From Acidobacteriota bacterium (lineage in GTDB: Bacteria; Acidobacteriota; Aminicenantia; Aminicenantales; Saccharicenantaceae): a stretch of 64,000 nt of DNA. Below are positions 32,210 to 48,740 of this stretch, in pieces. Both the position numbers and the translations under genes were made by a program. Numbering within the stretch: the stretch's first letter is position 1; the number at the start of each line of letters is the position of its first letter. The stretch is taken from contig JAQURD010000010.1 of NCBI GenBank assembly GCA_028749115.1, forward strand, positions 7,596 through 71,595, written 5' to 3'. Under the pieces are notes generated by a model, which did no database searches, was not told the origin of the DNA, and was given only the letters and a program-made list of their open reading frames with translations.

Positions 32210-32799
32210 CGGTCAATTACTCCTTTGAGACTGGGTATAACCTCTTTGTTCCAGGTAATGGAACAGGCCATGTGGAGTGCCCGGCCAAAGGCTTTAAATA
32301 TAGCTTCAGCCTGGTGATGATTGCTCCGGGCAGATGGAGCGACAATGGCAACATTAGCCATAAGCCCGGTGGAAAAAGCCTGGAAAAAATCCTCAAGCAA
32401 ATTAAAGTCGAAACCTCCACCCCAGCCTTTTCTAAAAGTTGTCCGGTATTGAAGATATGGCCGGCCCCCCAGGTCCACCGCTACCATAGCCAGAGCCTCA
32501 TCCATAGGAATTATGGCCTGGCCAGCGCGGTTTATTCCTTTGGCCTCTCCCAGAGCCTGAAGAAAAATTTTCCCCAGCACCAGTCCGGTATCCTCAACCA
32601 GATGGTGCTCGTCAACTTTGACATCTCCCCGGGCAGAAAGTGTCAGGTCGAACCGGCCATGAAATGACATCGTCTCAAGCATATGAGTGAGAAAACCAAC
32701 CGGTGTCACGATGTCATGTTTACCCGATCCATCAATGAGGAGAGAAGCCTTAATTTCAGTTTCAGAAGTCTTTCTGGCTAAGTCTGCCAAGCGGTTCAT
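32206..32799 (-). CDS. hisB: imidazoleglycerol-phosphate dehydratase (monofunctional)
   Basis: IGPD motifs (RxTxETxI, HHLVED, and similar). Confidence 0.9.
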   Translation of the reverse strand: MNRLADLARKTSETEIKASLLIDGSGKHDIVTPVGFLTHMLETMSFHGRFDLTLSARGDVKVDEHHLVEDTGLVLGKIFLQALGEAKGINRAGQAIIPMDEALAMVAVDLGGRPYLQYRTTFRKGWGGGFDFNLLEDFFQAFSTGLMANVAIVAPSARSNHHQAEAIFKAFGRALHMACSITWNKEVIPSLKGVIDR

Positions 32800-32845
32800 T
32801 TCAAACCTCCTTAAAATATATCCTTAAAATGTAAAATGTCTCTGG

Positions 32846-33913: not shown

Positions 33914-34779
33914 ATGATCACCTTTTTAATTTCATATTCGAGAATATCTGTGGCTCCCATTTTTTTGAGGAGAGGAATCAATTTTGTCGCCTCTTTTTTG
34001 CGGACAGCAACCTTGACGGCATAGCCTTTTTCGTCATAGAGAAGGGAAACGGTTGGAGCTCTCATGCAGGGTAAGACAGGAACAATTTCCTCCAGTTTAT
34101 CTTTGGGAAGATTCATCTCCAGCATGACCCGTTCCCGGGCATTAAGAACAGATTCAAAAAGCATGTTAAGCTCCCCGATTTTTTCTTTTTTCCAGGTGTC
34201 CTGAAGCGACACCGGATTGGCAATAAAGCGGGTCGAAGAGGAAAGAATTCTATCTATTATCTTGAGCCCGTTTTCTTTAAGAGTTTTGCCGGTAGAGGTA
34301 TTATCAATAATCAGATCAGCATCCTGAGGCGGGAAAGCTTCAGTCGCACCATAGGTTCTGATGAAGACATAGTCAAAAGTTTCCTTCTCTAAATATTTTC
34401 TCGAAATGTTTTCATATTCGGAAGCGACGATGAGGCGCCTGGTTCTTAGCTGTTGTTTGGTAATGGCCGTTTGAGCCGCCGAGACAATTTCCACCGGGTC
34501 AAAACCGGTGTCCAGGATTTCTTCGACGCGGCTGCCCGTTTCTACTATCCAGTCATAGCCGGTAAAACCAGCGTCATGAGAGCCTATCTCCACCAGTTGA
34601 GCAATATTCTGCGGTTTCATCAACTTGGCTTCAATTTGCGGGTCGCCTGTGCGAGGATAATAAGCACGGTCATCTACTTCGAGAAAGAGGCCAGCTTCAA
34701 GAAGAAGATTGGCCACGGCCGGGAAAATCTTACCCTTGGGTATTAATAGTTTTAATTTTTGATTAACCCTATCTGCCAA
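33910..34779 (-). CDS. hisG: ATP phosphoribosyltransferase, long form; probable TTG start at 34779
   Basis: LKLLIPKGK... HisG N-terminus. SD AGGAGG lies 5 nt upstream of TTG 34779. The track's GTG 34854 would add a non-conserved 25-aa extension. Confidence 0.8.
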   Translation of the reverse strand: MADRVNQKLKLLIPKGKIFPAVANLLLEAGLFLEVDDRAYYPRTGDPQIEAKLMKPQNIAQLVEIGSHDAGFTGYDWIVETGSRVEEILDTGFDPVEIVSAAQTAITKQQLRTRRLIVASEYENISRKYLEKETFDYVFIRTYGATEAFPPQDADLIIDNTSTGKTLKENGLKIIDRILSSSTRFIANPVSLQDTWKKEKIGELNMLFESVLNARERVMLEMNLPKDKLEEIVPVLPCMRAPTVSLLYDEKGYAVKVAVRKKEATKLIPLLKKMGATDILEYEIKKVII

Positions 34780-35589
34780 CTTAACCTCCTTTTTCGTCTC
34801 CTGATAAGGACAAAAAGACAGAAAGACAGGAATATTTAAATCCGGATTTTCCACTCATCGAATTCCAGGGCTGAAATTAAGGTGAGGCCGGACAAAAACG
34901 AGCGGCAGAATTATTCACTCATCCTTAAATCGTCCAGGAAAGAGATGAGGGAAAAAGGAAGGTTAGGTTCAATGCAGACAGGTATTGGTGAGACAATACT
35001 TGATGTAATATTTATTTTTGGTCTGCATAGCAGGATGATATTAGCAGCCTTTGATAGTGCTGTCAAGCTTTCGACGGCTCTTTGTTATTTACAGTTGAAA
35101 AGTGAACTGTTAATGGAGCATTCCATCTATAGGAGTAATAAATGGAAAGGACACACGAGCATGTTGGCCCAGAAATCTCTTTTGCCTTAGTGAAAGAAGA
35201 ACTGTCAATTTTTACCGGCGTATAGAGTTCTACAACCATCAAATTCCTCTCCTGAAGTCCCCATCGTGAGCAAGTGGATATCCATTTAGTCTCTGACCTT
35301 AAATGTGGCTTACTTGAACTTCTGCCTCTGGTGGAATAACCAGTTCATTAACCCTGTTACCTGACCTTATCAGACTTTCCGAGAGTCCACTTTTCAACTA
35401 TTGCTAACAATCCTGTACATACTATTGACAAGCTTGATAGAATAAATTATAAGAAAATCGGAACATGAGGGGAAAAGCAAAGAAATGCAGTTATCAGAGA
35501 GGCCAAAGGAAACTGCAAACACAGAGCCTTAATTTGTTTGGTAGTATTAAAATTCTATATAGAAATAACAAAGATTAAAGGGGGGTAAA

Positions 35590-36723
35590 ATGAAAAAATT
35601 TGTGTTGAGACTCTTCTTGGTTGAGTCGGCTGTTATTTTTTTGATTTTTTCTTCAGTTTTGCTAAAAGCTGATGATATAAAGATCAGGATCGAAAACGGC
35701 ATAGAGGTTATTTATAACCCAGAAAAGCCCGTTCCTCCCAAGGGCTCAGCGGCCAAGATTGTACTTAGACAGGAATTCTCAATTGGAGTGGGAAGGTTTG
35801 ATGAGGATAGGTTTGGAGAGTTGACCTCTATGGATGTAGATAGTGATGGAAACATATATATTCTGGACGGCAAGGAGAAAAGGATAAAGGTCTTTGACAG
35901 TGCCGGGAAGATTATAAATAAATTTGGGAAGGAAGGCCAGGGGCCAGGTGAGCTGAACTTACCTGTGTCTCTTCAAATAACTCCTGCCAGAGAAATAGTC
36001 ATTGGTGATGCCTCAAACCAGAAATTGATGTTTTTTTCTCTTGAGGGGAAGTTCTTGAGAGAAATGTCTACGGCTACAAAGGCTCGGGGTCTGGTTCTCC
36101 CTTTATTTGATTCTCAGGGAAATATCATTGGACAGCAGATTGTGCAAGCTGAGGGAAAGATTATCCGTGAAGTCAGAAAATATGACCACGAGTTGAATTC
36201 GCTCTTTACCATGGCTTCGGTGGATATTACAGGTGTTATACAGGGGAAAATCGATCCTTTCCGCATGGTATTTTCTTATCAGTTTGGAAAGGATAATATC
36301 ATCTATTGCAGTGACTTGGATAAATATGAAATTGAGATCTTCAGTCCAGAAGGGAAACTGATCAAAAGAATATTGAAAGACTATGTTCCCGTTAAACTAA
36401 GGGAAAAAGATAAAGAAGAATTTTTTGGCCGAATGCCGGAAATAGACCCTCAAGCTAAAGGGAGAATAAAGTTTTCAGAATATTTTCCTGCTTATCAGAA
36501 TTTTACCATGGACGAGCAGTGGAGGTTATTTGTCAGGACATTCGAGAAAGGAAAAAACAAAGGAGAGTACTACCTGGATGTGTTCGATGAAGAAGGAAAG
36601 TACATAGCGAAATTCTCCTTCAAAGGAGAGCCCCGGGCCTGGAGAGGAAACAAACTATATGCTATGGAGGAAGATGAGAGCGGATTTCAAACATTAAAGA
36701 TCTACAGTGTCTGCTGGGAATGA
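35590..36723 (+). CDS. secreted NHL-repeat / 6-bladed beta-propeller-like protein
   Basis: Signal peptide; repeated ...DxDGNIYIxD... blades. Confidence 0.55.
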   Translation: MKKFVLRLFLVESAVIFLIFSSVLLKADDIKIRIENGIEVIYNPEKPVPPKGSAAKIVLRQEFSIGVGRFDEDRFGELTSMDVDSDGNIYILDGKEKRIKVFDSAGKIINKFGKEGQGPGELNLPVSLQITPAREIVIGDASNQKLMFFSLEGKFLREMSTATKARGLVLPLFDSQGNIIGQQIVQAEGKIIREVRKYDHELNSLFTMASVDITGVIQGKIDPFRMVFSYQFGKDNIIYCSDLDKYEIEIFSPEGKLIKRILKDYVPVKLREKDKEEFFGRMPEIDPQAKGRIKFSEYFPAYQNFTMDEQWRLFVRTFEKGKNKGEYYLDVFDEEGKYIAKFSFKGEPRAWRGNKLYAMEEDESGFQTLKIYSVCWE

Positions 36724-36964
36724 TGGCTATGTCTTGGAATCTATTCATGCTGATTGTTATTCTTTAGATTGAGACGGCAAGGTGCATCCTTCTATTCTGG
36801 GTCATGGGTTATTGAGGGTATCTAATTAGCTAAGTAAGAAAGGGATACTAGTTTCAGGGGGGAGGAGTATGCTCAATTCGGCAGAGGCGTAATCTGGAAA
36901 CAGTTAAGAAGAGGTTGAAGGTACTAAAGGAGAAAGCAGCGAAAGGAGGCCTAGTCCATATACT

Positions 36965-37495
36965 GAGAGGCAGCTTCAGTCCTTAGAGAATTTGAGAGGG
37001 AGCGAGAGGAAAGTCTGGAAGAGATTGAGACTTACCATCCTGGGTATCTAATAGCCCAGGACACTTACTTTGTGGACTAGATATTAAGAGTGCGTGGCGA
37101 ATTTATCAGCAGACTGTTCTTGATACTTACTCCAGTGTAGCTTTCGCTAAGGTTTACACAGCTAAGGTGCCATTGACGGCGGCTGATCTGTTGAATGACC
37201 GCGTTCTTTTGTTTTTTAGAGATCAGGATTTGACGGTGCTGTGCGTCCTGACTGACAGAGAGACAGAATACTGCGGGGTAGCAGATAAACATCCTTTTGA
37301 AAGAGTTTTATAAAGTTGTCTTTCACTAGAAGATCTATACTATGCTGGATGAGTTACAGAAGGACCTTGACGCCAGCTTGAAGATATATAATAATCAGCG
37401 CACGCATCAAGGGAAACGGTGCCAGAGTCGGACACCGATGGAAACGTTTATTGCTGGAATAGAGCTCGATAGACAAATAATTTAGCCCGGGAATT
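36965..37495 (+). pseudogene. degraded DDE (rve-core) transposase remnant, IS481-like
   Basis: Recognisable ...IETYHPGYLIAQDTYFVD then a frameshift, ...RIYQQTVLDTYSSVAFAKVYTAKVPLTAADLLNDRV...LTDRETEYCG then a deletion of the DDE core, then ...KIYTMLDELQKDLDASLKIYNNQRTHQGKRCQSRTPMETF with an internal TAG. Multiple frames and stops show it is non-functional. Confidence 0.6.
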
Positions 37496-37628
37496 TAATG
37501 GAGGCCCCGACACTCGTCAACTTTAGTGTTGTTTGAACTAATTTTAAGACTCAAGATACTATGATGTATTCTACTCAGACTAAAAAAATTATAAACTTAA
37601 TCTATTAGCACAAGAAGGAGAAAAAGCT

Positions 37629-38660
37629 ATGAACAAAATATTTCCAATAAATGTTAATCTCGTATTTCAGCCTCTTAAGGTTATGTTTACAACATTTAAG
37701 ATAGTTTTTACTTGGTTATTGTGGCAATTGATGTGTATGTTTTGTTTTTTTTTCATACTGGTGTCATATAAGACATCTCTTTTGATGGCAAGCATATTAG
37801 CGTTTATTTTAACTCTGATTGTTTTAATTAAGATAGCAATTCACGAATACGGACATCTAGCCGTTGCGATTAGTGAAAATAAAGGATTGGTTTCATTAAA
37901 CCTCAGAAGAGGAGGGCCTTTAGGTTTCACTGTTTGCTATTCATATTGTCCACCCTTAAATCTTTCCAGCCGGGCGGCATTCTATATGAGCGGTCCGGCT
38001 CTTTCTCTTATTTTTGATCCGGTACTATTTTGCTTGGGAGCGCTTCTTTTAAGCGAGACTATGCTTAGGCCAGGATTGTTGACGTGGAGCAATAAGTTAA
38101 TTATATTAGGTATAATTTTTGTTGTGCCGATTTTTCAAATCATACTGTCTTATGTGATATCAAAGCCATCACAGGAGGGAGGAGACTACAGCAGGTTAAA
38201 AATGCTTAATCTTATGGGTTTACCGCCAGTAAAATTTAACGATTTAATCTCGGTTTTAATAAGCATTATCAATTATACGAGAGGGAAAGGAACAATCAAT
38301 ATAAAAAAGTTGTTAGAATTGAAACCTGTTTTTAATTTTCCTTATAATATCGAAGATCAAAAAACCATAAAAATTAATTTAGATAGTACAAATCATTTTT
38401 ATATTAGGGGAAAGGAAGCGGAAGTTGGAAGGAAAATAACTGGTACACATTCTATAAGCGAAATAATAAAAGACAGCGGTAGTGACAATGAAATATTAGA
38501 AATAATAATAAAATTTTATATGTGTTATATTGTGTCAATACCGCCTATATATTCAAAAATATCACCAGAGGATTTAATTCCATTCAAGATTGACTTTATT
38601 GAATTCTATAAGAAAATGATAGCAAAATATTTTAGTTCGAGTTTCTATTTTTCTGGATGA
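37629..38660 (+). CDS. polytopic membrane protein with TM-embedded HExxH, a putative intramembrane zinc metalloprotease (S2P/M50-like)
   Basis: LIKIAIHEYGHLAVAIS inside a hydrophobic helix; many TM segments; AT-rich codon usage like the rest of the island. Confidence 0.4.
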   Translation: MNKIFPINVNLVFQPLKVMFTTFKIVFTWLLWQLMCMFCFFFILVSYKTSLLMASILAFILTLIVLIKIAIHEYGHLAVAISENKGLVSLNLRRGGPLGFTVCYSYCPPLNLSSRAAFYMSGPALSLIFDPVLFCLGALLLSETMLRPGLLTWSNKLIILGIIFVVPIFQIILSYVISKPSQEGGDYSRLKMLNLMGLPPVKFNDLISVLISIINYTRGKGTINIKKLLELKPVFNFPYNIEDQKTIKINLDSTNHFYIRGKEAEVGRKITGTHSISEIIKDSGSDNEILEIIIKFYMCYIVSIPPIYSKISPEDLIPFKIDFIEFYKKMIAKYFSSSFYFSG

Positions 38661-39006
38661 CAATAAAGTTGCTAGCTGTTAAGCTTTCTGTTAATTTCCG
38701 GAGCCAAATTATTTTGTCTGGCCAAGTACTGAGATACCCTATGAAAACATTTATGTTGTTTTCTAACGAGAATTTGCTGAGCTGGTGTATAAGAAATAGT
38801 CAGCAGACTTTCCACCTTTACAGAGTGATAATAATTATCGGATGGCCTTTTTATATTGTTTGGGGCTAAAGAGATGGTTTATGCGAAGTTTGATTTTTAA
38901 GAAAGGAAAAACCGTATTAAAACAAAAAAAAAGAGATATCAATTCAATTGACAATAAACCGTAGGAATATTAATTTTATTATCTTAATGCAAAGAAGGAG
39001 GCTGAT

Positions 39007-39201
39007 ATGGACGAAAGAGAAGAGCTAATATATGAATCACCTTTAGCAATTACAGCAAATGATGTGTTTCTATTTTCAGTCGAAGCGGGAAGTGAGGCTG
39101 CGGCAGTGGCCGTTGTGGCTGTCGTGGCGGTAGTGGCTGTTGTTGCTGTTGTTGCCGTTGTGGCTGTTGTTGCCACTGTTGCAGTACCGGCGGCATACTA
39201 G
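39007..39201 (+). CDS. candidate RiPP precursor peptide: 33-aa leader plus (V-V-A)n hydrophobic repeat core
   Basis: MDEREELIYESPLAITANDVFLFSVEAGSEAAA | VAVVAVVAVVAVVAVVAVVAVVATVAVPAAY. SD AAGGAGG 5 nt upstream. Immediately upstream of an RRE-rSAM gene on the same strand; hairpin terminator just downstream. Confidence 0.7.
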   Translation: MDEREELIYESPLAITANDVFLFSVEAGSEAAAVAVVAVVAVVAVVAVVAVVAVVATVAVPAAY

Positions 39202-39216
39202 AAAAAATCTTTTTTT

Positions 39217-39240
39217 CTGCACTCAGCAGAGTGCAGTTTA
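39217..39240 (+). terminator. putative intrinsic terminator/attenuator hairpin after the precursor gene
   Basis: CTGCACTC-agca-GAGTGCAG 8-bp stem followed by TTTA. The T-tail is weak, suggesting a partial terminator. Confidence 0.4.
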
Positions 39241-39364
39241 GCTGGGCTAAGATAAGCCTCGCCTTTTTAGGAAATATGTCGGAGATCATGTGCATTAGAA
39301 CGTGTCTGGAATTTTTAGAGTAAATAGAAGGAAGGGCAGTTTCTTTTTGAATAAGAAGTAAAAA

Positions 39365-41107
39365 ATGTTTGATGACACGAAATTGGGTTTGGGCAATAAT
39401 GTCAGTGGCAATTTTTTGGCATTAACTCCAGTTCCCTTACGAGAAGCATCTTGGTATTTTGATGAAAAAACAGGTCGTGTTGTTATTTTAGTTTACCCTA
39501 AAAGGCTAATATTAGGAAAAGCTCAGTCTATGATTTGGAAACATGTTGATGGATTCAATACTGTTAATGATATAGCCAGTATTTTACATCATGATATGGA
39601 TATTAATGTTATCAGGGCAGCATTTAAAGAATTTGAATACAAAAACATAGCAAGAATGAAAGATATTAAAAATTCTTTTTGGGGTGATATCTCCGATAAT
39701 AATAAAAAGATAGACATAATTGAAGATCCAATGGGTTCTGATACTGGTGCTGATTTGATTTTGATAGTGCCTCCACAGTCTATAAGGTGTTTTTCGCTTG
39801 GAGCGATCAGCCTAGCACCTCCATTAGGATTGATGTATATCGCTTCAAATTTAATTTTAAATGGATATAAGGTTAAGATATTAGATCTAAGTGACAAGAC
39901 AAAACTTTCAAAAGATAGTTTTCATGATTATCTTGACAAAAACAGGCCAAAAGCTGTTGGAATTACTTGTTGGTCTGAATTTATGGAAAATGCTTTAGAA
40001 TTAGCCAAAACAACCAAAGAATATAATCCTGAAATAGCTGTCATCTTAGGCGGTCCACATGTTACCTTCATGGCTGACGAATGTTTTAAAGAAAATGATT
40101 ATGTTGACGTAGTTTGCCGGCATGAAGGTGAATACAGTATGATAGAGTTAATGGATTTCTATAAATGGAAAAAGGGTTCTTTGCAAGATATTTTAGGCAT
40201 AACATATCGTGAGCAGAAAACAGGTTCTGTCGTACGTAATCGAAGTAGAGCCTTTATAAAAGAATTAGATGAATTACCATTTCCAGCCCGCCATCTGATA
40301 GATTTCTCAAAGTATACAAAGCCTATGTTTATGATCACTAGCAGAGGCTGCACAGGTAAATGTAAATTTTGTGCAGGGACTACAATGGGGAGACGATATA
40401 GATTTAGACATCCTGATAAGGTTGCACAAGAAATAGAAGAGATAATTAGAGATTATAAACCAGAGGAGATTTATATTGTAGATGATGCCTTTACTATTAT
40501 TCCTGATCGTGCAAAAGAGATCTGCGCTTACTTAAAAAACTCGGATATAAGATGGTTCTGTGAATCACGAGTTGATGCTGTAAACGAAGAATTACTAAGG
40601 ATATTTTATGAATCTGGCTGTAGATATATTCAATTCGGAATAGAATCTGGCTCTCAACAGATTTTAGATGCTATCAAAAAGGAAACGACTTTAACAGAGG
40701 TCGAAAATGCCGTTAAATGTGCAACTGAAGCTGGCATCAAAGTAGCTTGTTCTTTCATAATAGGACACTTCGATGATACAGATGAAACAATTCAAGAAAC
40801 AATTGCACTAATGAAATATTTAAAAGACAAATATAATGTGGCTTTATTTTGTGGCCCGAATGTCATATTTCCTGGCACGTATCAGTATGCACATAGAGAG
40901 TCTTTAGGATTAGACTTTCAACTAAAATCTTGGAGTGCCAATATAATGGGGCATACAGTTACGCCAACTAAGTACCTTTCATATGAAAAACTTAGACGTT
41001 ATGTATTTGAAGCAATTGAATTATGTATGCCGACAGTCATTGATCTTGCTAAAGAGAAGAATCGTGAATTATATGGTAGTGAATGGCCAGATCGATTGGG
41101 TAGGTAA
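39365..41107 (+). CDS. B12-binding-domain radical SAM enzyme with N-terminal PqqD-like RiPP recognition element (RRE)
   Basis: N-terminal ~100 aa PqqD-like (IWKHVDGFNTVNDIASIL); cobalamin-binding-type Rossmann domain; radical SAM CTGKCKFC (CxxxCxxC) within ITSRGCTGKCKFCAG. Confidence 0.85.
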   Translation: MFDDTKLGLGNNVSGNFLALTPVPLREASWYFDEKTGRVVILVYPKRLILGKAQSMIWKHVDGFNTVNDIASILHHDMDINVIRAAFKEFEYKNIARMKDIKNSFWGDISDNNKKIDIIEDPMGSDTGADLILIVPPQSIRCFSLGAISLAPPLGLMYIASNLILNGYKVKILDLSDKTKLSKDSFHDYLDKNRPKAVGITCWSEFMENALELAKTTKEYNPEIAVILGGPHVTFMADECFKENDYVDVVCRHEGEYSMIELMDFYKWKKGSLQDILGITYREQKTGSVVRNRSRAFIKELDELPFPARHLIDFSKYTKPMFMITSRGCTGKCKFCAGTTMGRRYRFRHPDKVAQEIEEIIRDYKPEEIYIVDDAFTIIPDRAKEICAYLKNSDIRWFCESRVDAVNEELLRIFYESGCRYIQFGIESGSQQILDAIKKETTLTEVENAVKCATEAGIKVACSFIIGHFDDTDETIQETIALMKYLKDKYNVALFCGPNVIFPGTYQYAHRESLGLDFQLKSWSANIMGHTVTPTKYLSYEKLRRYVFEAIELCMPTVIDLAKEKNRELYGSEWPDRLGR

Positions 41108-41113
41108 GACGGT

Positions 41114-42035
41114 TTATGCTAATCCCCTGAGGATGGATAAGGCTCCTGGCAAGAGTGTCAGACGAAGATGTATTTTATAAATTTCAAAAAATGACAGAGA
41201 GAAGGAATAGTTTATAGACGGGAGCGTTTCCCATGTGCTGGGCAGCGCGATAAGACTCAAAATGACCTGATTAGGTTGGTCTACGTTCACCCCCTCCAGT
41301 AGATAAGGGTAAAGCTTATGACCAGGAGAGGAAAAACCTATCCTCCTATGGGGATAGATGGCCTGAAGTCCTAAACGTCTGAAAAGCTTCCTCACCCGCT
41401 TGGCATTTACCCCATAGCCCTGAGCCCTTAACCAGGCGGTCATCCTCCTTACCCCATAAAACGGTGTTCTGGTAAACTCTTCATCTATGAGCCTCATCAA
41501 CTCAAGATTACAGTCATCATTGACCACTGAGCTGTAATAGTATGAGGACCTCAGAAGATTTAATAGCTCACACTGCCGGACCACCGCTATCTCCTCGTTA
41601 TTCCTCTCCACCAACTGCCTCTTCTCCTCTACTGAAGCTGCCGAAATTTTTTTTTAAGCCAATCGTTCTCTACCTTGAGCTGCCCTATCTGCTGGTAAAG
41701 CTCCGCCTCCTTCTGGTCTCGTTCCTCATCTGTTCTCTTCCTCCGGTCCGAAAACAACTCAGGTAATGCATTCAGCAGATGTTCCTTCCATTGACTAACC
41801 TGGTTAGGATGAACCCCATACTCACTGGCTACCTGGGCAACAGTCTTCTCCCCTTTGACCGCCTCCAGCGCCACCCTGGCCTTAAAGGCCGCTTCATACT
41901 GTCGTCTTTTCATACTGGCCATTTTACCATACCTCCTCCAGAGTTATGGCAGGTCATTTCCCACCTTATTGCCCTGTCCAGTTTTTGGGGAGAACCTCAC
42001 CTAGTAGATCCTTGACAACTGTTCATTTGCTCATA
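41114..42035 (-). mobile_element. truncated IS3-family element (orfA intact, orfB 3'-truncated)
   Basis: orfA 41629..41922 (HTH, MASMKRRQYEAAFKARVALEAV...). A10 slippery run at ~41646-41656 typical of an IS3 -1 frameshift. orfB' 41114..41614 (...RRMTAWLRAQGYGVNAKRVRKLFRRLGL...) lacks the DDE integrase core. Putative left end TGAGCAAATGAAC (revcomp of 42021-42033). Confidence 0.65.
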
Positions 42036-42100
42036 CCTGCTTCTTCTAATGGCAAATTAGTGCTCTCTAATGAGACCAAAAGGTGCAGTCAAATATCAAC

Positions 42101-44224
42101 CTATAGAACTTTTTCACCTCTCTCTAATTTAAAGAAAACAAACCATACAAAAATTGCTACTATTGCCAATATTAGATCTAACGAGACAAGCCTCTTTAGC
42201 CATACTAAGGTTTCAGTTGAGTCAATAAGTTGTGCCAGAATACCCCTCTGAGCAATGCAGGCTGGGTTTAGCTTGAACAATATAGATGTATCAGGAATAT
42301 TTACCGCTCCTGAAATAGCCACAGGTAAGATTAGAAATAACTCTAGAACTGCTAATGTTATGCTTACTCCGGATGTTATGGAAGGGAAAATAATAATCGA
42401 TAGACAGCTAATAGATAATCCTAAAAGAACACATATTAATAAAAGTTTGCAGATCAGAAATATACTTATTTCAAAGCCACTAATAAAACTTATACCTATC
42501 ATCAGGGAGGCAACTACTATAGAGGCAAAAATAGCTGTTAACATGATACTTGTTAGAAAATCGAAATGGCTTAATGGAGTCAATCGTAAGGCATCTAATG
42601 TTTCCATCTGTTTCTCTTTAGCCATAACAGAAGATAGGCCCATACTGATAACCACTATTTGTATGACAATAAAAATCGTGAATAGAAAAAAACTTAAATT
42701 CATTCCTTTTATTTTCTTAAATATTAATGAGTATTTTCCTTTTTCTCCAGCTTCTTCTAAGATTATTCTTCTTATTATATTAGCTACAATAAAAGACTGT
42801 GGTTGCCTGGCGTCGTCCATAATTATTTCGATAAAGGGACTATTATCCCGGGAAGATATTAAGATTGCACTTAAGACTAGTTTTTTCTGAATCAGGGCTC
42901 TGGCCTCATTAACACTTTTCACCTGATGATAAGAATAAGGAGTTTTTTTAGTTAAGTTTATTAACACCTGGTTTGATAACTCATCATTAGTAGAATATAA
43001 TGCAACTTTGCTTCTCTCAAGATAAGGTAACTGCATATTTATTAATAAAACTATAGTTATAAATAGGAAAAAGAGCACAAGCACTAATATTATCTTAAAA
43101 CTTAGTAATTCCTTTATATTCTTCGAAACCATAGTTAGAACTCTATTTCTATATTTGAAATTTAACCTAACTGTTGGTATCCGGTGAAATTTTGGAATGA
43201 TCCTTTTGCTTGTAGCTGAGAAGGCACCTAAAATAAATTTAAATAGAAAGGCAGTGACTATTGTTCCAAAAAAGAAAAAAAACACAATATTCCAGCTCAG
43301 GCTTGATACATTTAAGAGTATTTGCTGAGATGCAGAAGATGGAAGGATGTAATTATATTTTGCAATCAATTCTAAACGATCAACAAACACGGAAGGTGTA
43401 ATAAAAATAATTGCTGCTATCGATGAATAAGTATATACAGAAATTGCAGTTCTGGCCGACATAGCAATTTCTAATCCTAGGTAAGCATAAAATATACTTA
43501 AGATTAAGAAAATCACTAAAGCTTTTAATTTATAGCTGAATGGTTCTTGTAAAAAGGATAATGATATAGAGATAACAGGTAATATTATTAATGCATAAAA
43601 TATCAATTTAGAGATTATTATTTGGATTTTCCTAGCACCACTCATGTTTATAGCATCCAGTAGTCCCTTATCTTTCTCGTAGATAATATTGTGAACAAAC
43701 ATATTCAGGCCTAAAAGTGGCAGCATGACCTGCAATAAGATTAGAAAAATACGTGTTGGGATTCTTACGCTCCTTAGGTTACTGATATAAATATTTATCG
43801 CTTTGCTTTTATCTTTAGAAATAGCCTCTGATATCAATGCCGATGATAGTTCTTGAACTATAGGATTATTATCACTGATAATTATTTGAAGGGCTGGTAA
43901 TCCGGATTCTCCTTTAATAAAATCTATTGCTGCTATTACTTGCCCTTTCATTATTAATTGTTCTGCTTTTGAAAAATCGCTTATTTCTATTATTTTAAAG
44001 GCGGGATATCGTTCTATTTCCTCAGCTATGGTCTTATGGACAGCTTGTTTAGATTGAACAATGGCTAGTGGGAATTTGTTTCCCTTAACATTGCCAAAAT
44101 AACTAAAAATTAAAAGGATAGATAAAGGAGACAATATTATAATAAAATTAAACTTATTTTTTAAAAATAATTTAATTTCTTTTTGTATTAAGAACAAAAT
44201 ATTCTTCATTATGTCTTTCACCAA
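42101..44224 (-). CDS. ABC-2 type transporter permease (large, two-module)
   Basis: Two blocks of ~6 TM helices separated by extracytoplasmic segments; the 53-nt overlap with the upstream ATPase gene suggests translational coupling. Confidence 0.7.
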   Translation of the reverse strand: MVKDIMKNILFLIQKEIKLFLKNKFNFIIILSPLSILLIFSYFGNVKGNKFPLAIVQSKQAVHKTIAEEIERYPAFKIIEISDFSKAEQLIMKGQVIAAIDFIKGESGLPALQIIISDNNPIVQELSSALISEAISKDKSKAINIYISNLRSVRIPTRIFLILLQVMLPLLGLNMFVHNIIYEKDKGLLDAINMSGARKIQIIISKLIFYALIILPVISISLSFLQEPFSYKLKALVIFLILSIFYAYLGLEIAMSARTAISVYTYSSIAAIIFITPSVFVDRLELIAKYNYILPSSASQQILLNVSSLSWNIVFFFFFGTIVTAFLFKFILGAFSATSKRIIPKFHRIPTVRLNFKYRNRVLTMVSKNIKELLSFKIILVLVLFFLFITIVLLINMQLPYLERSKVALYSTNDELSNQVLINLTKKTPYSYHQVKSVNEARALIQKKLVLSAILISSRDNSPFIEIIMDDARQPQSFIVANIIRRIILEEAGEKGKYSLIFKKIKGMNLSFFLFTIFIVIQIVVISMGLSSVMAKEKQMETLDALRLTPLSHFDFLTSIMLTAIFASIVVASLMIGISFISGFEISIFLICKLLLICVLLGLSISCLSIIIFPSITSGVSITLAVLELFLILPVAISGAVNIPDTSILFKLNPACIAQRGILAQLIDSTETLVWLKRLVSLDLILAIVAIFVWFVFFKLERGEKVL

Positions 44225-45128
44225 TTATCTTCATAAAAGCTTCTTGTAGAGAAGGTCTGACTTTTTCAATTGTTTTAATCTCGACGCCACTTTCCTTTAT
44301 GATGTCATTTAAAGACCCAATAAAAGAGACAATATCTGTCGAGACTTTATTAAAGGTTAAGACATCGCAGCTCTCATTTTCTAAAACACTAAATGAGCTA
44401 AACTGTTTAGGATTGATCCTGGCACTAAAACATACTCTATATAAGTTTTCAAGTGAAGCTTCAGAACATAATTGTTCAGTAGATCCACTAGCGGTTATTT
44501 TCCCATGATGAAGGATGGCTATCCTATTACACAATATTTCTGCCTCGTCAAGATAATGGGTGGTAATAAATATAGTTTTGCCCCGGTTATTCAAATTTGA
44601 TATCAATCTTCTTACAAATTGATCAGTTTGAGGATCTAGGCCAACCGTCGGTTCATCGAGGAAAAGAACTTCAGGATCGTGGATCAACGCTCTTCCTATA
44701 AGAAGTTTTTGTTTCATTCCTTTTGAATATTTATATACGTTTTCGTTTGCTCTGTCTTCCAATTTCATCAGTTTAAGCATATTTTCAGCAGATTGTTTGG
44801 GCTGAGGCAATCCATATAGCTGCGCAAACAAATATAGATTATAAAAACCTGAAAGGTTTTCATAAAGATTCTGATTTTCGAAAACTACACCGATAATTCT
44901 TTTTATACGTTTCTGGTATTTTTTTAGGTCAAGATTTCTAATCAGAATTTGCCCACTACTTGGCTCAATTAATCCACATAGCATTTTTAATATTGTGCTC
45001 TTACCTGCTCCATTTGGACCAAGCAACCCAAAAATTTCTCCTTCTTTCACACTTATACTTATATTGTCTACTGCTATCAATTCCCCATATTTCTTAGTGA
45101 TAGCCTTCATTTCAATTGCAGATTGCAT
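44172..45128 (-). CDS. ABC transporter ATP-binding protein
   Basis: Walker A GPNGAGKST, signature LSGGMKQK-like (YSKGMKQKLLIGRAL), Walker B LFLDEPT, H-loop. Confidence 0.9.
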   Translation of the reverse strand: MQSAIEMKAITKKYGELIAVDNISISVKEGEIFGLLGPNGAGKSTILKMLCGLIEPSSGQILIRNLDLKKYQKRIKRIIGVVFENQNLYENLSGFYNLYLFAQLYGLPQPKQSAENMLKLMKLEDRANENVYKYSKGMKQKLLIGRALIHDPEVLFLDEPTVGLDPQTDQFVRRLISNLNNRGKTIFITTHYLDEAEILCNRIAILHHGKITASGSTEQLCSEASLENLYRVCFSARINPKQFSSFSVLENESCDVLTFNKVSTDIVSFIGSLNDIIKESGVEIKTIEKVRPSLQEAFMKIIGERHNEEYFVLNTKRN

Positions 45129-45145
45129 TGATTATCCTCGCCTGC

Positions 45146-46492
45146 CTACTTACCTAGAGTCCACATTACTTCTTCTATAACATTCTTGTAACAGTCACAA
45201 CAAGGGTTATTTTCTGTCAATGAACCAAACTCCAGAGCCAAAACTCTACATCCGCCGCCGCAATAATATCTATACTCACAAGCTGAACAGTTCTTAAATT
45301 TATCAACTGTAACCTCTTGATAAATCTCAGAAGCTTTTTTATTTATTTCTGAAAAGTCTTCAACGTAAGTATTTCCAATTTTATATTTATGATCGTGTAA
45401 TAAAGGACATGGATATACTGAACCGTCTGGACTTATACTCAATGTATTTATGCCTAATCCGCAGTTTAGGTATTTATGAGTATTAAATGGAGAATACACC
45501 ATATCGCCAGCAGTCTTAAGCGTAATTTGAACTTTCTTTTTCTTTAGAAGAAATGAATAGAATAGTTCCCTGCTTTGTTGAAAAACGGAAATGAAATTAC
45601 ATCTTTTTGAAAAATCATTTGTTTCAGTTTCAATAGCCGGTATCAAGCACTTTATTTCTAAAGTACATTTACTATCATTTATAGGTTCAAGTATATTTGA
45701 GAGCTTAGATATATTTTGCTCATTTACCAGGGCGGAAATCAATATGCTTTTTAATCCAGCCTTCTTGAGCATTTTGACATTTTCGATAGCCAAATCCACT
45801 GATGAAGAATTTTCTATTTCAATATTGATTTGAATACTTTTAAAACAAGATACTAATATGTTGGCCATATCAATCCCAATAGGAGCTGAGTCTAAAATAA
45901 GATTTAGAGGATTGGTGGCTATTTTCATACAGTCAATTAAATGTTCTTTTTGTAATGTTTCTAAATCGGAGGATATTAATAACTGGGTTAATTGATAATT
46001 ATTTAACTGGTGAAATAGCCTAGCTAACTCGTCAGATGTCATAATATGTTCTGATTCTTCCGAATCGTTGCATGCATAGCCATATTGACATTGACGATAT
46101 GATAATTTTTTTAAATGGATCCATACAAATTTCAAATCAACAATACCTGGCATCGGCGCTGTTTTATCGCCAATTATTCGAGCGTCTTTTGCCTTTTCTA
46201 AAAATGTTCTTACATCTTCTTCAATCAATCGTGCAGGAACATCCCAGCACTTAGCTATTTTATCAACTATTTCTGTAAATAGAGGATTTTCAAAATAAGA
46301 TTTGATTATGTCCATTCCAACACGGTTAGATCTCATCCAACCCATATGCTTCCCGTTAACTATTAGGTACTCATTTCCTTTCTTTTTAATATTGAGGTCA
46401 GAAGATAAATTAAAATTAAGTTTTTCAATTTTAGGTTTACCTTTTAATTGGTTAGGACTCTCCATATGCTTATTCTCCTTCTCTTGAATCAA
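45146..46492 (-). CDS. RRE-containing SPASM-domain radical-SAM-like peptide maturase (non-canonical cluster motif)
   Basis: N-terminal PqqD-like RRE (YLIVNGKHMGWMRSNRVGMDIIKSYFENPLF...). C-terminal SPASM Cys array (CGLGINTLSISPDGSVYPC ... CSACEYRYYCGGGC ... CC). Where CxxxCxxC is expected, the sequence reads SYRQCQYGYACNDS (Cx5C only). Confidence 0.7.
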   Translation of the reverse strand: MIQEKENKHMESPNQLKGKPKIEKLNFNLSSDLNIKKKGNEYLIVNGKHMGWMRSNRVGMDIIKSYFENPLFTEIVDKIAKCWDVPARLIEEDVRTFLEKAKDARIIGDKTAPMPGIVDLKFVWIHLKKLSYRQCQYGYACNDSEESEHIMTSDELARLFHQLNNYQLTQLLISSDLETLQKEHLIDCMKIATNPLNLILDSAPIGIDMANILVSCFKSIQINIEIENSSSVDLAIENVKMLKKAGLKSILISALVNEQNISKLSNILEPINDSKCTLEIKCLIPAIETETNDFSKRCNFISVFQQSRELFYSFLLKKKKVQITLKTAGDMVYSPFNTHKYLNCGLGINTLSISPDGSVYPCPLLHDHKYKIGNTYVEDFSEINKKASEIYQEVTVDKFKNCSACEYRYYCGGGCRVLALEFGSLTENNPCCDCYKNVIEEVMWTLGK

Positions 46493-47342
46493 AACACGTT
46501 TCCCGTTATAAAATAGGGAATTTAACTACACAAAGTTTTTATTCAACATTTACATGAAGAGCAATGGTATCGATTGCTCGATATTTCATCATCATTTGGA
46601 AAAATTCCTACGATTAGCATTATTCTGCATACTTTTCAAATTTTTTTCTGCTTGAAGAAGCATGAAACTAGATAGAGGATATATTGCCTTACAGCTCAGC
46701 ACCTGGCCTTCTATCTTAAATGCCGTTATAGCCTCCTGCCTAAAATACATAACTATCCTTGCTACCGCCTCTACTTTGTTTGTCCCAACATCCATTTTTT
46801 ATAGTTCATGCTTAGCCATTATGCTAAGGACCCTCAGCTTGGCGGCCTCTATAGCTATGAATGCAAAGCCTATATATTCCTCTTATACCTTGACTTACAA
46901 CAAAGCCACACCATTGGCTATAATTTCTTCTAATAGTGATTTATATATTAGTTCTTCTTTTTTGCCCGTAGTTACCTCCTTATTTTAGCTGCAAGAGTCA
47001 AGCTAATATTCATGAGACTTAATGTCAATCAAATTGATATCTTTTTTTTTTCGTTTTGGTATGGTTTTTTTCGTTTCTTATAAATTCAGATTCGGCATAA
47101 ATCCATGTCTTTAGCGCAAAATAATAATAAAAAGACTATTTTCCCCCCACCCTTACTATTCGGAAGATTCCACTGCAAATTAGCTAGCCATTCTGAGGGG
47201 AAGGCAGCAGCTTTTAGCGCAGTGATTGGAATAAGTGGCCAGGATGGGTTAGAAGCATAGCGGTGTGTTGGGTAATCTCAGATGGAAGGGGTATTTTAAA
47301 CCTCTGAGGAATAGAAATTATACTGAATAAGGAGGCGTCAGG

Positions 47343-47621
47343 ATGAAGCTAAGGAAATGGAGTTCAGAGGAGAAGATGGCGATTGTGCTGGAGGGGTTAA
47401 AGGGGAAAAAATCGGTGGCTGAGATATGTCGGGAACATCAGATAAGCCAGGCATTGTATTATCGGTGGCGGGACAGGTTTTTGGAGGCTGGTCAGAAGGG
47501 GTTAAGCAATGGGGGCAGTGAGGATGAGACGAAGGCGCTTCAAACCCAGATAGAGAAACTGGAGAAGATAATAGGGCGACAGACGATTGCCATCGAGGCT
47601 TTAAAAAAACTCAAGAGTTAA
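47343..47621 (+). CDS. IS3-family transposase OrfA (second, unrelated copy); downstream orfB reduced to a ~100-nt fragment
   Basis: MKLRKWSSEEKMAIVLEGLKGKKSVAEICREHQISQALYYRWRDRF... (HTH_Tnp_1-like). 47640-47710 encodes an OrfB N-terminal fragment (...LREEGMSLKSACEALKISLSW) and then decays. Confidence 0.7.
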   Translation: MKLRKWSSEEKMAIVLEGLKGKKSVAEICREHQISQALYYRWRDRFLEAGQKGLSNGGSEDETKALQTQIEKLEKIIGRQTIAIEALKKLKS

Positions 47622-47918
47622 TCTCGGAGAAGAAGACGAAGCTGATGAGGGAGGAAGGGATGAGCCTGAAATCAGCTTGTGAAGCTCTGAAGATAAGTCT
47701 GAGCTGGCGGTAAGGGAGTTCAAGCATGAGCTGGGTCGAGACAAAAGTCGGTAAGTCAAACCAGATAGACGACTCATTTGAAAAGAACTCTATCTCTCAA
47801 TGTGAGAAAAAGTGTGTTGCTTTTCGGGGTGAAGTGCAATTTTGCCACTTGATTTATTAGTTCGAATGATAATAATATTTTATTCGAAGATTTTTTTCCT
47901 GAAAGAAAGGGGGAATAA

Positions 47919-48632
47919 GTGGCTAGCCAAATTTCTATTATATCTGAAGATAAAAGTTTCCTTAGTTGGATATCAAAAGCTGTTAATGGGTCAAATTTAA
48001 ATCTTAAGATCAATGAAGGCATTAATAACGGCAATGCCAAGCCCGCGCTGATTCTTCTATCTTGTAACTATCTTTGCCAATATGGGAAATGTTCAAATAA
48101 ATTCTTTACCGCTGCTCAGTTTCCTGAGATTCCTCTTGCTGTAGCCCGACCAATTCATTTGAAAAACTTTAAAGAAGGACAGAGTGATTTTTTGATTTCG
48201 TTTTTAAGAGGCGAGAATGTGACACATATAAAAACACTATCGGAAAAATTAGCAACATGTGCCTATTCAAGTAATCCATCAATTTCTAAAATCGAAACTC
48301 TCTTTAAAATCATTCAGGTTCAGAAACAAATTGTCGAATCTAAAGGTAAGGTTTTTGAAGTCTCGGAGCTATCGAGAAATGTGGGTCTTTCGGTTTCTTG
48401 GTTTTCAACGAAATTTAAAGAAATGTCGGGGATTCCGTTGAAAACATATGCAAACAAGATAAGGCTTTGTCATTCCCTTTGGGAACTTATCTCCACTTAT
48501 AGTCCTATCAAATCAATTGCTATTGATTTCGGATATAAACCACTATCTTTTAGCATGAGATTTCATGAAAAAATAGGAATATGGCCTTCTGAGGTGAGAA
48601 GAAGAAGACGAAGTGGTCAACACCGTGTCTAG
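47919..48632 (+). CDS. AraC-family transcriptional regulator (GTG start)
   Basis: C-terminal AraC-type dual HTH (ELSRNVGLSVSWFSTKFKEMSGIPLKTYANKIRLCHSLWEL...IAIDFGYKPLSFSMRFHEKIG). SD AAGGGGG upstream. AT-rich like the island. Confidence 0.7.
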   Translation: MASQISIISEDKSFLSWISKAVNGSNLNLKINEGINNGNAKPALILLSCNYLCQYGKCSNKFFTAAQFPEIPLAVARPIHLKNFKEGQSDFLISFLRGENVTHIKTLSEKLATCAYSSNPSISKIETLFKIIQVQKQIVESKGKVFEVSELSRNVGLSVSWFSTKFKEMSGIPLKTYANKIRLCHSLWELISTYSPIKSIAIDFGYKPLSFSMRFHEKIGIWPSEVRRRRRSGQHRV

Positions 48633-48740
48633 CCCAGTTTTAAGGTGTATTTTTATCATTATACGGCTGCATATATAGACAAGTCGGTATACAGCAATCA
48701 GCTAATTGACAATCAGGAGGGTTCCTTTTATCTTAAAGGC

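What the first reader, a model, noticed from the sequence alone, without database searches (positions are those of the whole stretch)
36965..48640. AT-rich genomic island bounded and interrupted by dead IS elements carries the whole RiPP locus
From about 37.5 to 48.6 kb the sequence is visibly much more AT-rich than the ~50% GC backbone (not computed). The island begins after an IS481-like transposase pseudogene. A 3'-truncated IS3 element sits exactly between the B12-rSAM stop (41107) and the permease stop (42101). A second, unrelated IS3 orfA with a decayed orfB lies at 47343-47710, before the AraC regulator. This points to horizontal acquisition followed by IS decay, and the internal IS3 may separate or affect expression of the two halves of the cluster.
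Basis: partly seen in the sequence, partly recalled or inferred. Interest (0 to 1): 0.65.

Follow-up and report, generated by a model that had tools for sequence, protein, structure and literature searches.

The report
Foreign AT-rich island carrying RiPP genes
An 11.9-kb stretch of foreign, AT-rich DNA carrying a peptide-antibiotic-type (RiPP) gene cluster and three dead insertion sequences was inserted just upstream of thyX in one Aminicenantes (Saccharicenans-like) genome; a related genome preserves the empty site, so this is a well-documented but ordinary genomic island.

Summary
Window 37.5-48.65 kb is 33-35% GC against a 46% backbone. Island genes have GC3 of 0.25-0.34 against 0.35-0.57 (p=4e-6). 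The three IS remnants are GC-richer (GC3 0.52-0.59).

A related contig (L075, about 85-90% identical) reads polX-his operon-NHL-thyX and joins window 36784 directly to 48642. It is flanked by a 6-bp direct repeat, AAGGTG, and has no terminal inverted repeats, tRNA or integrase.

- The IS481 pseudogene lies inside the insert, cut at about codon 80 by the left edge.
- The right edge is the AraC gene's 3' end, not an IS.
- The internal IS3 probably keeps both termini after an internal deletion. It sits between convergent stop codons, so it is unlikely to split an operon.

The cargo is partly decayed. A second promoter and leader copy has lost its start codon, and the PqqD/SPASM protein has lost the CxxxCxxC motif. 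The nearest homolog of the B12-rSAM enzyme is 45% identical, so the donor is unknown.

The site is a hotspot. Thirty Aminicenantia loci have polX directly next to thyX. Verdict: a real, horizontally acquired island of a known kind.

The parts
36779..36784 (+). Left copy of the 6-bp direct repeat AAGGTG at the island junction.
   Evidence: It is present once in the empty site of L075 and at both junctions in the window. Chance of 6 bp or more of junction microhomology is about 0.002.
36785..37523 (+). IS481-family transposase pseudogene. It is 5'-truncated at about codon 80 by the island edge, has several frameshifts and stops, and carries a 29-codon internal deletion.
   Evidence: NF033577, E 6.5e-24; homology to residues 85-356 of the 356-aa protein P0242.
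37629..38660 (+). Polytopic membrane protein with an HEYGH (HExxH) motif and weak similarity to M50 peptidases. It is a candidate leader peptidase.
   Evidence: PF02163, E 0.003, below the cut-off. GC3 is 0.30. No NCBIfam hit.
38847..39066 (+). Copy A of the duplicated promoter, RBS and leader segment.
   Evidence: (74% identity over 230 nt to 47134-46907, inverted).
39007..39201 (+). Precursor peptide A. The leader is MDEREELIYESPLAITANDVFLFSVEAGSEAA and the core is a Val/Ala repeat (AVAVVAVV...VATVAVPAAY), encoded by a 9-nt periodic repeat.
39365..41107 (+). B12-binding radical SAM enzyme with an intact CxxxCxxC motif and an N-terminal extension of about 145 aa.
   Evidence: PF02310 and PF04055. 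In one search all NCBIfam families score below their cut-offs. In one search the nearest homolog is 45% identical.
41220..42000 (-). IS3-family remnant 'IS3a'. It has an intact orfA (41629-41922) and only the N-terminal HTH_21 part of orfB, with no DDE domain. Both termini are probably retained after an internal deletion between CAGGTC repeats.
   Evidence: 88-91% nt identity to full-length copies over 41264-41992/42001; resemblance to the right end of full-length copies.
42101..44224 (-). ABC-2 type permease of 707 aa, with two ABC-2 halves.
   Evidence: PF12698, two stretches. GC3 is 0.27.
44172..45128 (-). ABC transporter ATPase.
   Evidence: PF00005, E 6.6e-34.
45146..46492 (-). PqqD(RRE)-degenerate radical SAM core-SPASM protein. 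The ORF is intact, but CxxxCxxC has become SYRQCQYG and GGEP has become SDLE.
   Evidence: PqqD and SPASM only, no PF04055 hit. One search aligns it to the L071 homolog, which has CNLKCVHC..
46907..47134 (-). Copy B of the promoter, RBS and leader segment. The ATG has become ACG and a stop follows about 23 codons later, so this is a decayed second precursor.
47194..47800 (+). IS3-family remnant 'IS3b'. It has a probable left end (TGAGGGG...), orfA at 47343-47621, an A7 slippery site at 47604-47610, and an orfB that decays after about 47710. It is 3'-truncated.
   Evidence: 31% identity to the IS3a orfA.
47919..48632 (+). AraC-family regulator with island-like composition. Its stop codon is 9 bp from the right junction.
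   Evidence: (GC3 0.29).
48642..48647 (+). Right copy of the AAGGTG direct repeat. Backbone homology resumes here, and the thyX promoter-like TTGACA-17-TATCTT at 48706-48734 is retained.
28206..36784 (-). Context: older layers of the same hotspot. They comprise the his operon hisG-C-B-H-F-A/IE-D (34854 to 28317, minus strand, native-like composition) and an NHL/DUF5128 gene (35590-36723, plus strand). In most relatives they are absent from between polX and thyX.

Best explanation
Window 36785-48647 is an 11.86-kb horizontally acquired genomic island.

How it arrived. It was inserted about 60 bp upstream of the thyX promoter in a Saccharicenans-like (Aminicenantia) genome, at a site that has repeatedly accepted DNA in this lineage. 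The incoming segment already ended inside a dead IS481 copy on its left and just after an AraC gene on its right. It most likely integrated by recombination through a 6-bp identity (AAGGTG): either microhomology-mediated illegitimate recombination or integration of a circular intermediate by a recombinase acting in trans. Canonical IS or composite-transposon transposition is unlikely. This step is inferred.

What it carries. The cargo is a two-module RiPP cluster:
- Plus-strand module: an HExxH membrane protease candidate, a precursor with a Val/Ala-repeat core, and a B12-radical-SAM enzyme (probably a C-methyltransferase; inferred).
- Minus-strand module: a second promoter and leader copy, a PqqD-SPASM protein, and an ABC exporter.
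- An AraC regulator.

What happened afterwards. Two different IS3 elements landed in non-coding spacers and were then crippled, one by internal deletion and one by 3' truncation. For IS3a, a source in the resident or habitat IS pool is supported by its GC3 of 0.52-0.58, its 88-91% identity to copies in digester and sludge metagenomes, and a fragment in Aminicenantes MAG L008. For IS3b, only its backbone-like GC3 of 0.59 supports that origin.

The minus-strand module shows decay. The second precursor has lost its start codon, and the rSAM core has lost two of its three cluster cysteines. The cluster may therefore be only partly functional.
For: Shown:
- Foreign composition: GC 33-35% against 46%, GC3 0.285 against 0.476 (p=4e-6), and tetranucleotide correlation 0.66-0.74 across the island.
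- An exact empty site in L075, with a single AAGGTG there and a flanking duplicate in the window. Chance of 6 bp or more of junction identity is about 0.002.
- A second, closer relative (L074, HisG 96% identical) joins hisG directly to thyX.
- Thirty Aminicenantia loci have polX within 900 bp of thyX, and no retrieved thyX locus carries island genes.
- The island genes are orphans: the best B12-rSAM homolog is 45% identical.
- IS481 homology runs to within 18 nt of the left junction and starts at reference residue 85.
- There are no terminal inverted repeats, no tRNA and no Rfam hit.
- IS3a is 88-91% identical to many full-length copies. An 81-bp end fragment of it lies upstream of thyX in L008.
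- The IS remnants are compositionally unlike the island.
- The promoter and leader region is duplicated in inverted orientation, and copy B is decayed.
- The rSAM motifs are lost compared with the L071 homolog.
- Three Logan contigs from run SRR22315506, produced by a separate assembly, cover both outer junctions and all junctions between unique DNA and IS ends at 100% identity.
Against: - No donor or near-identical copy of the island was found, so the direction of transfer and the source are inferred only from composition and absence in relatives.
- The 6-bp repeat would also be left by a precise deletion between short repeats in the L075 lineage.
- There is no integrase, tRNA or terminal inverted repeat, so the insertion mechanism is not demonstrated.
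- The interior of IS3a (41337-41962) and of IS3b (47348-47652) is not bridged by the Logan contigs. The order and orientation of the middle segment therefore rest on the MAG assembly plus the shared promoter repeat.
- The intact 448-aa ORF of the 'dead' rSAM protein, in 32% GC DNA, argues that it may still be under selection rather than decaying.
- The right-terminus assignment for IS3a rests on a short, roughly 65-70% similar match.
Confidence: 0.8

Rival explanations
1. The block is ancestral to this clade and was precisely deleted in the L075 and L074 lineages by recombination between the two AAGGTG repeats. Its AT-richness would then reflect its gene content rather than foreign origin.
For: Deletion between short direct repeats leaves exactly one copy, as seen in L075. 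The hotspot is clearly rearrangement-prone.
Against: - No island gene was found in any of the 66 other thyX loci, nor in L074 or L075.
- L074 and L075 have different junctions, so two independent losses would be needed.
- GC3 is 0.285 and the tetranucleotide signature is foreign.
- Nothing above 45% identity to the B12-rSAM enzyme exists anywhere, including other Aminicenantes.
Confidence: 0.06
2. The AT-rich DNA is an assembly or binning chimera. It would come from another, low-GC organism in the metagenome and be joined to the Aminicenantes contig through shared IS repeats.
For: - The source is a MAG contig ('MAG: radical SAM protein [Acidobacteriota bacterium]', 73,568-bp contig).
- The Logan contigs break inside IS3a and IS3b, so those IS interiors are repeated in the sample.
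Against: - Logan contigs from run SRR22315506 cross both outer junctions, covering the NHL 3' end into the island (36682 onwards) and AraC into the thyX upstream region (to 48726), at 100% identity.
- They also cross every junction between unique DNA and an IS end.
- The junctions carry a clean 6-bp duplication of the empty-site sequence.
- The left and middle segments share a diverged promoter and leader repeat.
Confidence: 0.04
3. The island moved as an IS-driven unit, either a composite transposon or a one-ended or IS481-mediated transposition, and AAGGTG is a true target-site duplication made by a DDE transposase.
For: - A 6-bp flanking duplication fits a transposase-made target-site duplication. 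From my own knowledge, not tested here, the IS481 family duplicates 4-15 bp and IS481 itself duplicates 6 bp.
- An IS481 remnant sits exactly at the left edge.
- Related B12-rSAM/SPASM clusters (L071-L073) also sit next to a transposase.
Against: - The IS481 copy lacks its own left end and its first 80 or so codons at the junction.
- The right edge is not an IS.
- There are no terminal inverted repeats.
- The two IS3 remnants are unrelated to each other and are internal.
Confidence: 0.12

Closest known systems
Classical genomic islands (horizontally acquired, strain-specific chromosomal blocks)
   Same: - Atypical GC and codon usage.
- Presence or absence among close relatives, with an identifiable empty site.
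- Short flanking direct repeat.
- IS remnants and accessory cargo (a secondary-metabolite cluster).
- Location in a recurrent insertion hotspot.
   Different: - No tRNA or tmRNA target and no integrase or recombinase gene.
- A very short (6-bp) repeat.
- Small size (11.9 kb).
- One edge lies inside a truncated IS.
Proteusin/polytheonamide-type and other RiPP clusters using B12-dependent radical SAM C-methyltransferases (PoyB/PoyC; NCBIfam TIGR03975 'RiPP maturation radical SAM C-methyltransferase')
   Same: A small precursor with a core rich in Val and Ala, next to a B12-binding rSAM enzyme, a second rSAM-type protein, a protease candidate and an ABC exporter.
   Different: - The precursor has a short 32-aa leader, not a nitrile-hydratase-like or Nif11 leader.
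- The B12-rSAM enzyme scores below every NCBIfam cut-off (TIGR03975: 123 bits against 282; ApyD: 178 against 750).
- The partner rSAM/SPASM protein lacks the SAM-cluster cysteines.
- No chemistry has been demonstrated.
IS3-family insertion sequences and their internally deleted, non-autonomous derivatives
   Same: - orfA/orfB organisation and HTH_Tnp_1 plus HTH_21 domains.
- An A7 slippery site in IS3b.
- A TGA... terminus.
- Close full-length relatives (88-91% nt identity) in metagenomes. Other deletion variants of the same IS occur in L099 and L100.
   Different: - Both copies lack the DDE (rve) catalytic domain.
- No clear target-site duplication was recognised.
- No second copy occurs within the window.
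IS481-family insertion sequences
   Same: A single transposase ORF homologous to NF033577. It is 59-61% identical to intact transposases of about 356 aa.
   Different: It is a fragment. The left end, the HTH region and 29 internal codons are missing, and it carries frameshifts and stops.

Membership tests
Genomic island (horizontally acquired) | Base composition and codon usage differ from the host backbone. | tested here: met
   GC 33-35% against 46%. GC3 0.285 against 0.476, p=4e-6. Tetranucleotide correlation 0.66-0.74 across the island.
Genomic island (horizontally acquired) | Absent from the same site in close relatives (an empty site exists). | tested here: met
   L075 joins window 36784 to 48642. 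L074 joins hisG to thyX. No island gene was found in 66 further thyX loci.
Genomic island (horizontally acquired) | Flanking direct repeats. | tested here: met
   AAGGTG at 36779-36784 and 48642-48647, and a single copy in L075. Chance is about 0.002.
Genomic island (horizontally acquired) | Insertion next to a tRNA or tmRNA gene. | tested here: not met
   No tRNA or tmRNA in the 64-kb window. No Rfam hit in 26-52 kb.
Genomic island (horizontally acquired) | Carries an integrase or other mobility gene. | tested here: inconclusive
   Only three dead transposase remnants (IS481 and two IS3) are present. No integrase domain appears in any island ORF.
Composite transposon | Two copies of the same IS at the two ends. 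| tested here: not met
   The left edge is a truncated IS481 and the right edge is the AraC 3' end. The two IS3 remnants are internal and only 31% identical in orfA. There are no terminal inverted repeats.
IS481 family | Transposase matches the family model over its full length, above the cut-off. | tested here: not met
   NF033577 scores 84.9 bits against a cut-off of 224, covering profile positions 84-213 plus a C-terminal piece. It is a family fragment, not an intact member. Homology to residues 85-356 of a 356-aa transposase.
IS3 family | orfA/orfB with a programmed -1 frameshift and a DDE (rve) catalytic domain. | tested here: not met
   orfA and the orfB N-terminus match NF033516 (47, 68 and 46 bits against a cut-off of 160). 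An A7 site is present in IS3b. Neither remnant has an rve domain. They are derivatives of family members, not functional ones.
IS3 family | Terminal inverted repeats beginning with TG. | tested here: inconclusive
   The IS3a left terminus, TGAGGTTCTCCCC, aligns with TGAAATGCTCCCC of full-length copies. The right-terminus match at 41220-41270 is short and about 65-70% similar.
RiPP B12-rSAM C-methyltransferase (TIGR03975) / ApyD (NF050148) | Score above the curated family cut-off. | tested here: not met
   TIGR03975 scores 123.5 bits against 281.9. ApyD scores 178.5 against 750. HpnJ scores 189 against 578. Only the superfamily domains PF02310 and PF04055 pass.
Radical SAM/SPASM peptide maturase | CxxxCxxC radical-SAM cluster motif plus a SPASM domain. 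| tested here: not met
   The SPASM and PqqD domains are present. There is no PF04055 hit, and the motif reads S...C..G where the homolog has C...C..C.

The most novel reading that the evidence does not exclude
The cargo may be a functional, new type of RiPP system rather than a decaying one. In this reading, a B12-radical-SAM enzyme modifies (for example C-methylates) a (VAV)n repeat core. The PqqD-SPASM protein has lost its SAM cluster but is retained as a non-catalytic partner that binds the leader or carries an auxiliary cluster. The duplicated promoter and leader segment serves as a shared AraC-controlled switch for the two convergent operons.

The points in favour are the intact 448-aa ORF in 32% GC DNA and the better conservation of the promoter than of the coding part of copy B. 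Loose precedents are distantly related clusters with hydrophobic, beta-branched repeat cores (L070, L071) and the NCBIfam model for a SPASM-domain-only protein (GeoRSP system, TIGR04304).
Probability: 0.15. Interest if true: 0.6.

Novelty: new member of a known kind. Interest (0 to 1): 0.3.

Why it matters
This gives a clean, base-pair-resolved example of horizontal gene transfer into an uncultured phylum (Aminicenantes/Acidobacteriota), with the empty site preserved in a relative. The thyX upstream spacer emerges as a recurrent insertion hotspot, with a nested series of states: polX|thyX, then the his operon, then the NHL gene, then the RiPP island. An unrelated AT-rich RHS cassette occupies the same site in another genome.

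For natural-product mining, the result flags that this orphan B12-rSAM/(VAV)n cluster is accessory, of unknown donor and partly decayed. That should temper expectations that the host makes the product. Conceptually it is an ordinary genomic island.

Tried and rejected
- Terminal inverted repeats or longer direct repeats at the island ends: local alignment scored below shuffles.
- A repeat flanking the older NHL layer (35.1 kb against 48.67 kb): not significant.
- A tRNA, tmRNA or other RNA target: none found.
- The promoter and terminator scan: counts equalled shuffles, so it was uninformative.
- Other copies of the IS fragments within the window: none.
- Donor search through the B12-rSAM enzyme: nothing above 45% identity. 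Through IS481: the best hit is 61% identical, and the only named hit is Planctomycetota, which is uninformative.
- Exact-protein look-ups for HisG, the coiled-coil protein, NHL and the SPASM ORF failed, probably because of different start calls.
- My early idea that AAACAAAT/AGACAAGT motifs at 28.2 and 48.68 kb were a duplication flanking the whole 20.5-kb block was dropped once L074 and L075 showed the block is layered.
- A target-site duplication for IS3a could not be identified.
- A literature search for Aminicenantes plus RiPP or radical SAM found nothing specific.

Full report
**1. Observation**

The compositional step is real and sharp.
- The backbone on both sides is 46.3% GC, not about 50%.
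- 37501-41110 is 34.5% GC, 42101-47200 is 32.6%, and the AraC segment 47801-48690 is 35.2%.
- Third-position GC separates three classes of gene. Eighteen backbone genes average 0.476 (range 0.35-0.57). The seven island genes average 0.285 (Mann-Whitney p=4e-6). The three IS-derived ORFs average 0.565.
- The composition-normalised tetranucleotide correlation to the backbone drops to 0.66-0.74 across 34-46 kb. Most backbone windows score 0.86 or higher. The exception is the separate variable region at 51-54 kb, which dips to about 0.81.

- an HExxH membrane protein (37629-38660);
- a 64-aa precursor with a Val/Ala repeat core (39007-39201);
- a B12-binding radical SAM enzyme (39365-41107);
- an IS3 remnant on the minus strand;
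- an ABC-2 permease and an ABC ATPase;
- a PqqD/SPASM protein (45146-46492);
- a second IS3 orfA (47343-47621);
- an AraC regulator (47919-48632).

The IS481-like pseudogene is also real. A conceptual translation across three frames matches NF033577 (E 6.5e-24) and is 61% identical to intact 356-aa transposases. It contains frameshifts, stops and a 29-codon internal deletion.

**2. Organism and synteny**

ThyX, just right of the island, places the window in Candidatus Saccharicenans/Aminicenantia. It is 91-89% identical at the protein level to DAOLNQ010000007, UBA1061 and UBA6228.

In 30 retrieved Aminicenantia loci, polX (window 26450-28159, minus strand) lies within 900 bp of thyX, usually 100-350 bp away. 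The upstream block g17432-...-archease-rtcB-polX is conserved. In the window, 20.5 kb separates the two genes.

This block is layered.
- The his operon (34854 to 28317) has backbone-like GC3 (0.453, not significantly different) and tetranucleotide correlations of 0.89-0.95, lowest at the hisG end.
- L074, a Logan contig with HisG 96% identical, has thyX directly beside hisG. Window 35156-48696 is absent from it.
- L075 (NCBI contig JAHZTK010019096.1 of GCA_020047475.1), about 85-90% identical at the nucleotide level, reads polX-hisD...hisG-NHL-thyX.

The inferred series is therefore polX|thyX, then the his operon, then the NHL gene, then the AT-rich island. Each addition abuts the thyX promoter region.

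A different relative, L008, carries an unrelated 4.1-kb AT-rich insert at the same spacer (31-37% GC). That insert has an RHS-core-like ORF and an 81-bp end fragment of the same IS3. L002 has tandem 255-bp repeats at this spacer. The site is a hotspot.

**3. Exact boundaries**

Aligning L075 with the two window junctions gives these sequences:
- L075: ...GAGACGGT AAGGTG TATTTTTATC...
- window left: ...GAGACGGC AAGGTG CATCCTTC...
- window right: ...CCCAGTTTT AAGGTG TATTTTTATC...

AAGGTG therefore occurs once at the empty site and at both junctions (36779-36784 and 48642-48647). The inserted segment is 11,863 bp. In random position pairs from the window, junction identity of 6 bp or more occurs with probability about 0.002.

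Other features of the ends:
- There are no terminal inverted repeats, no tRNA, no Rfam hit and no integrase.
- The AraC stop codon is 9 bp from the right junction.
- The thyX promoter-like TTGACA-17-TATCTT (48706-48734) lies in retained backbone.
- On the left, IS481 homology begins at reference residue 85, at window 36803. That is 18 nt inside the junction, and the homology runs to the transposase C-terminus at 37523.

The island's left edge is therefore a break inside an IS481 gene. The IS left end and the HTH region are missing. This argues against IS481 or composite-transposon transposition. It favours recombination through a 6-bp identity, either illegitimate or microhomology-mediated or catalysed in trans on a circular intermediate. 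That step is inference.

**4. The internal IS elements**

IS3a is 88-91% identical at the nucleotide level to many full-length IS3 copies in digester and activated-sludge metagenome contigs. The homology runs from window 41992-42001 down to 41264. Its left terminus, TGAGGTTCTCCCC, aligns with their TGAAATGCTCCCC.

Homology to orfB stops at 41264. However, 41220-41270 resembles the right terminus of the full-length copies: CAGGTCA...CTTA...TGCCCA...ATGGGAAACG against CAGGTCA...CTTA...TGTCCA...ATGGGGAGCA. The breakpoint coincides with a CAGGTC repeat. I therefore read IS3a as an internal-deletion derivative of about 780 bp that keeps both ends. My confidence in this is moderate. Other deletion variants of the same IS exist in L099 and L100.

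IS3a occupies the spacer between two convergent stop codons (41107 and 42101) and interrupts no gene.

IS3b has a probable left end near 47194, an intact orfA, an A7 slippery site and an orfB that decays after about 47710. Its orfA is 31% identical to that of IS3a, so the two are different elements. It lies between the AraC gene and the minus-strand promoter copy, where a regulatory effect is more plausible than at IS3a.

For IS3a, three observations indicate an origin in the resident or habitat IS pool after the AT-rich DNA arrived: its backbone-like or higher GC3, its close relatives in the metagenomes, and the IS3a fragment in an Aminicenantes MAG. For IS3b only the GC3 evidence is available. 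By contrast, IS481 was already truncated at the time of integration.

**5. State of the cargo**

A self-comparison found an inverted duplication, 38847-39066 against 47134-46907, with 74% identity over 230 nt. It covers an upstream region containing a conserved ATTGACA, the RBS and the leader codons of the precursor.
- In copy B the ATG has become ACG.
- A stop codon follows about 23 codons later (GKKEELIYKSLLEEIIANGVALL*).
- No canonical ORF of 20 aa or more starts there.

Downstream of copy B, the PqqD/SPASM protein aligns with a PqqD-rSAM-SPASM homolog from L071 (E 6e-47). It has SYRQCQYG where the homolog has CNLKCVHC, and SDLE where the homolog has GGEP. It also gives no Radical_SAM Pfam hit. 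As a radical SAM enzyme it is therefore dead, although the 448-codon ORF is intact.

The plus-strand module looks intact, with CTGKCKFC in the B12-rSAM enzyme and HEYGH in the membrane protein.

The B12-rSAM enzyme has no homolog above 45% identity in 5.8 billion proteins and falls below every NCBIfam family cut-off. Distantly related clusters exist, with short peptides whose cores are rich in hydrophobic, beta-branched residues:
- L071: ...TITITITIV..., beside two B12-rSAM genes, a PqqD-rSAM-SPASM gene and a transposase;
- L070 (Zixibacteria)...ILGIIILAIIIV....

**6. Assembly check**

Three Logan contigs from run SRR22315506 match the window at 100% identity over 36682-41336, 41963-47347 and 47653-48726.
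- They cross both outer junctions and every junction between unique DNA and an IS end.
- They break only inside IS3a and IS3b, as expected for repeated IS sequence.
- The order of the middle segment is not independently bridged. It shares the promoter repeat with the left segment.

**7. Verdict**

The finding is correct in substance. This is a horizontally acquired, AT-rich, 11.9-kb island that carries the entire RiPP locus, with one dead IS at its left edge and two inside.

Four refinements apply:
- IS481 belongs to the insert and is cut by its boundary.
- The right boundary is the AraC gene's 3' end.
- IS3a probably retains both termini and lies between convergent genes, so it does not split an operon.
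- The island is the newest layer at a recurrent hotspot upstream of thyX, and its minus-strand module is degenerate.

The donor and the integration mechanism remain unknown. As a class this is a known kind of feature, so the interest is modest. It rests mainly on the base-pair-resolved empty site in an uncultured phylum and on the orphan cargo.

Noticed in passing
window 51231-58216: A second variable region lies downstream of thyX. A DUF498 gene module is repeated (51237-51572 against 53978-54313 at 88%; 54551-54782 against 57669-57901 at 80%). M23 peptidase and TPR-PDZ genes lie between the copies. Relatives L004 and L074 lack parts of the region.
   Followed up: partly
L008:5896-10000: Another Aminicenantes MAG has a 4.1-kb insert at the same polX-thyX spacer. 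It is AT-rich (31-37% GC), has an RHS-core-like ORF and small ORFs, and carries an 81-bp end fragment of the same IS3 as IS3a. Its his operon lies on the other side of polX, and its His proteins are only 43-64% identical to the window's.
   Followed up: partly
L002:9260-9990: Three tandem copies of a GC-rich repeat of about 255 bp fill the polX-thyX spacer in the closest genome-collection relative.
   Followed up: no
window 35082-35410: A 27-nt inverted repeat (35082-35108 / 35384-35410, 81% complementary) brackets about 275 bp upstream of hisG. That stretch cannot be aligned with the corresponding stretch of L075. It may be a small MITE-like insertion or a variable leader.
   Followed up: no
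window 46592-46795 (-): A 67-aa ORF lies between the decayed leader copy and the SPASM gene. Its N-terminus, DVGTNKVEAVA, aligns in frame with the C-terminal VVATVAVPAAY of precursor A. It may be a rearranged remnant of a second precursor core.
   Followed up: partly
L074:6759-9687 versus window 48693-51617: The closest his-operon relative (92-93% nt identity in his and in 58.6-63.3 kb) is only 80.6% identical across thyX and the coiled-coil gene. This suggests recombination or a mosaic structure next to the hotspot.
   Followed up: no
window 48645-48740: Because of the insertion, the longest thyX ORF starts at a GTG (48645) within the junction repeat. The conserved start is the ATG at 48741 (MKIILAGYN...).
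   Followed up: yes
window 19001-19780: A non-coding gap of about 0.8 kb between g18442 and g19781 has low GC (38%) and reversed GC skew. It is shortened in relative L002, where the gap between the two genes is about 330 bp.
   Followed up: no
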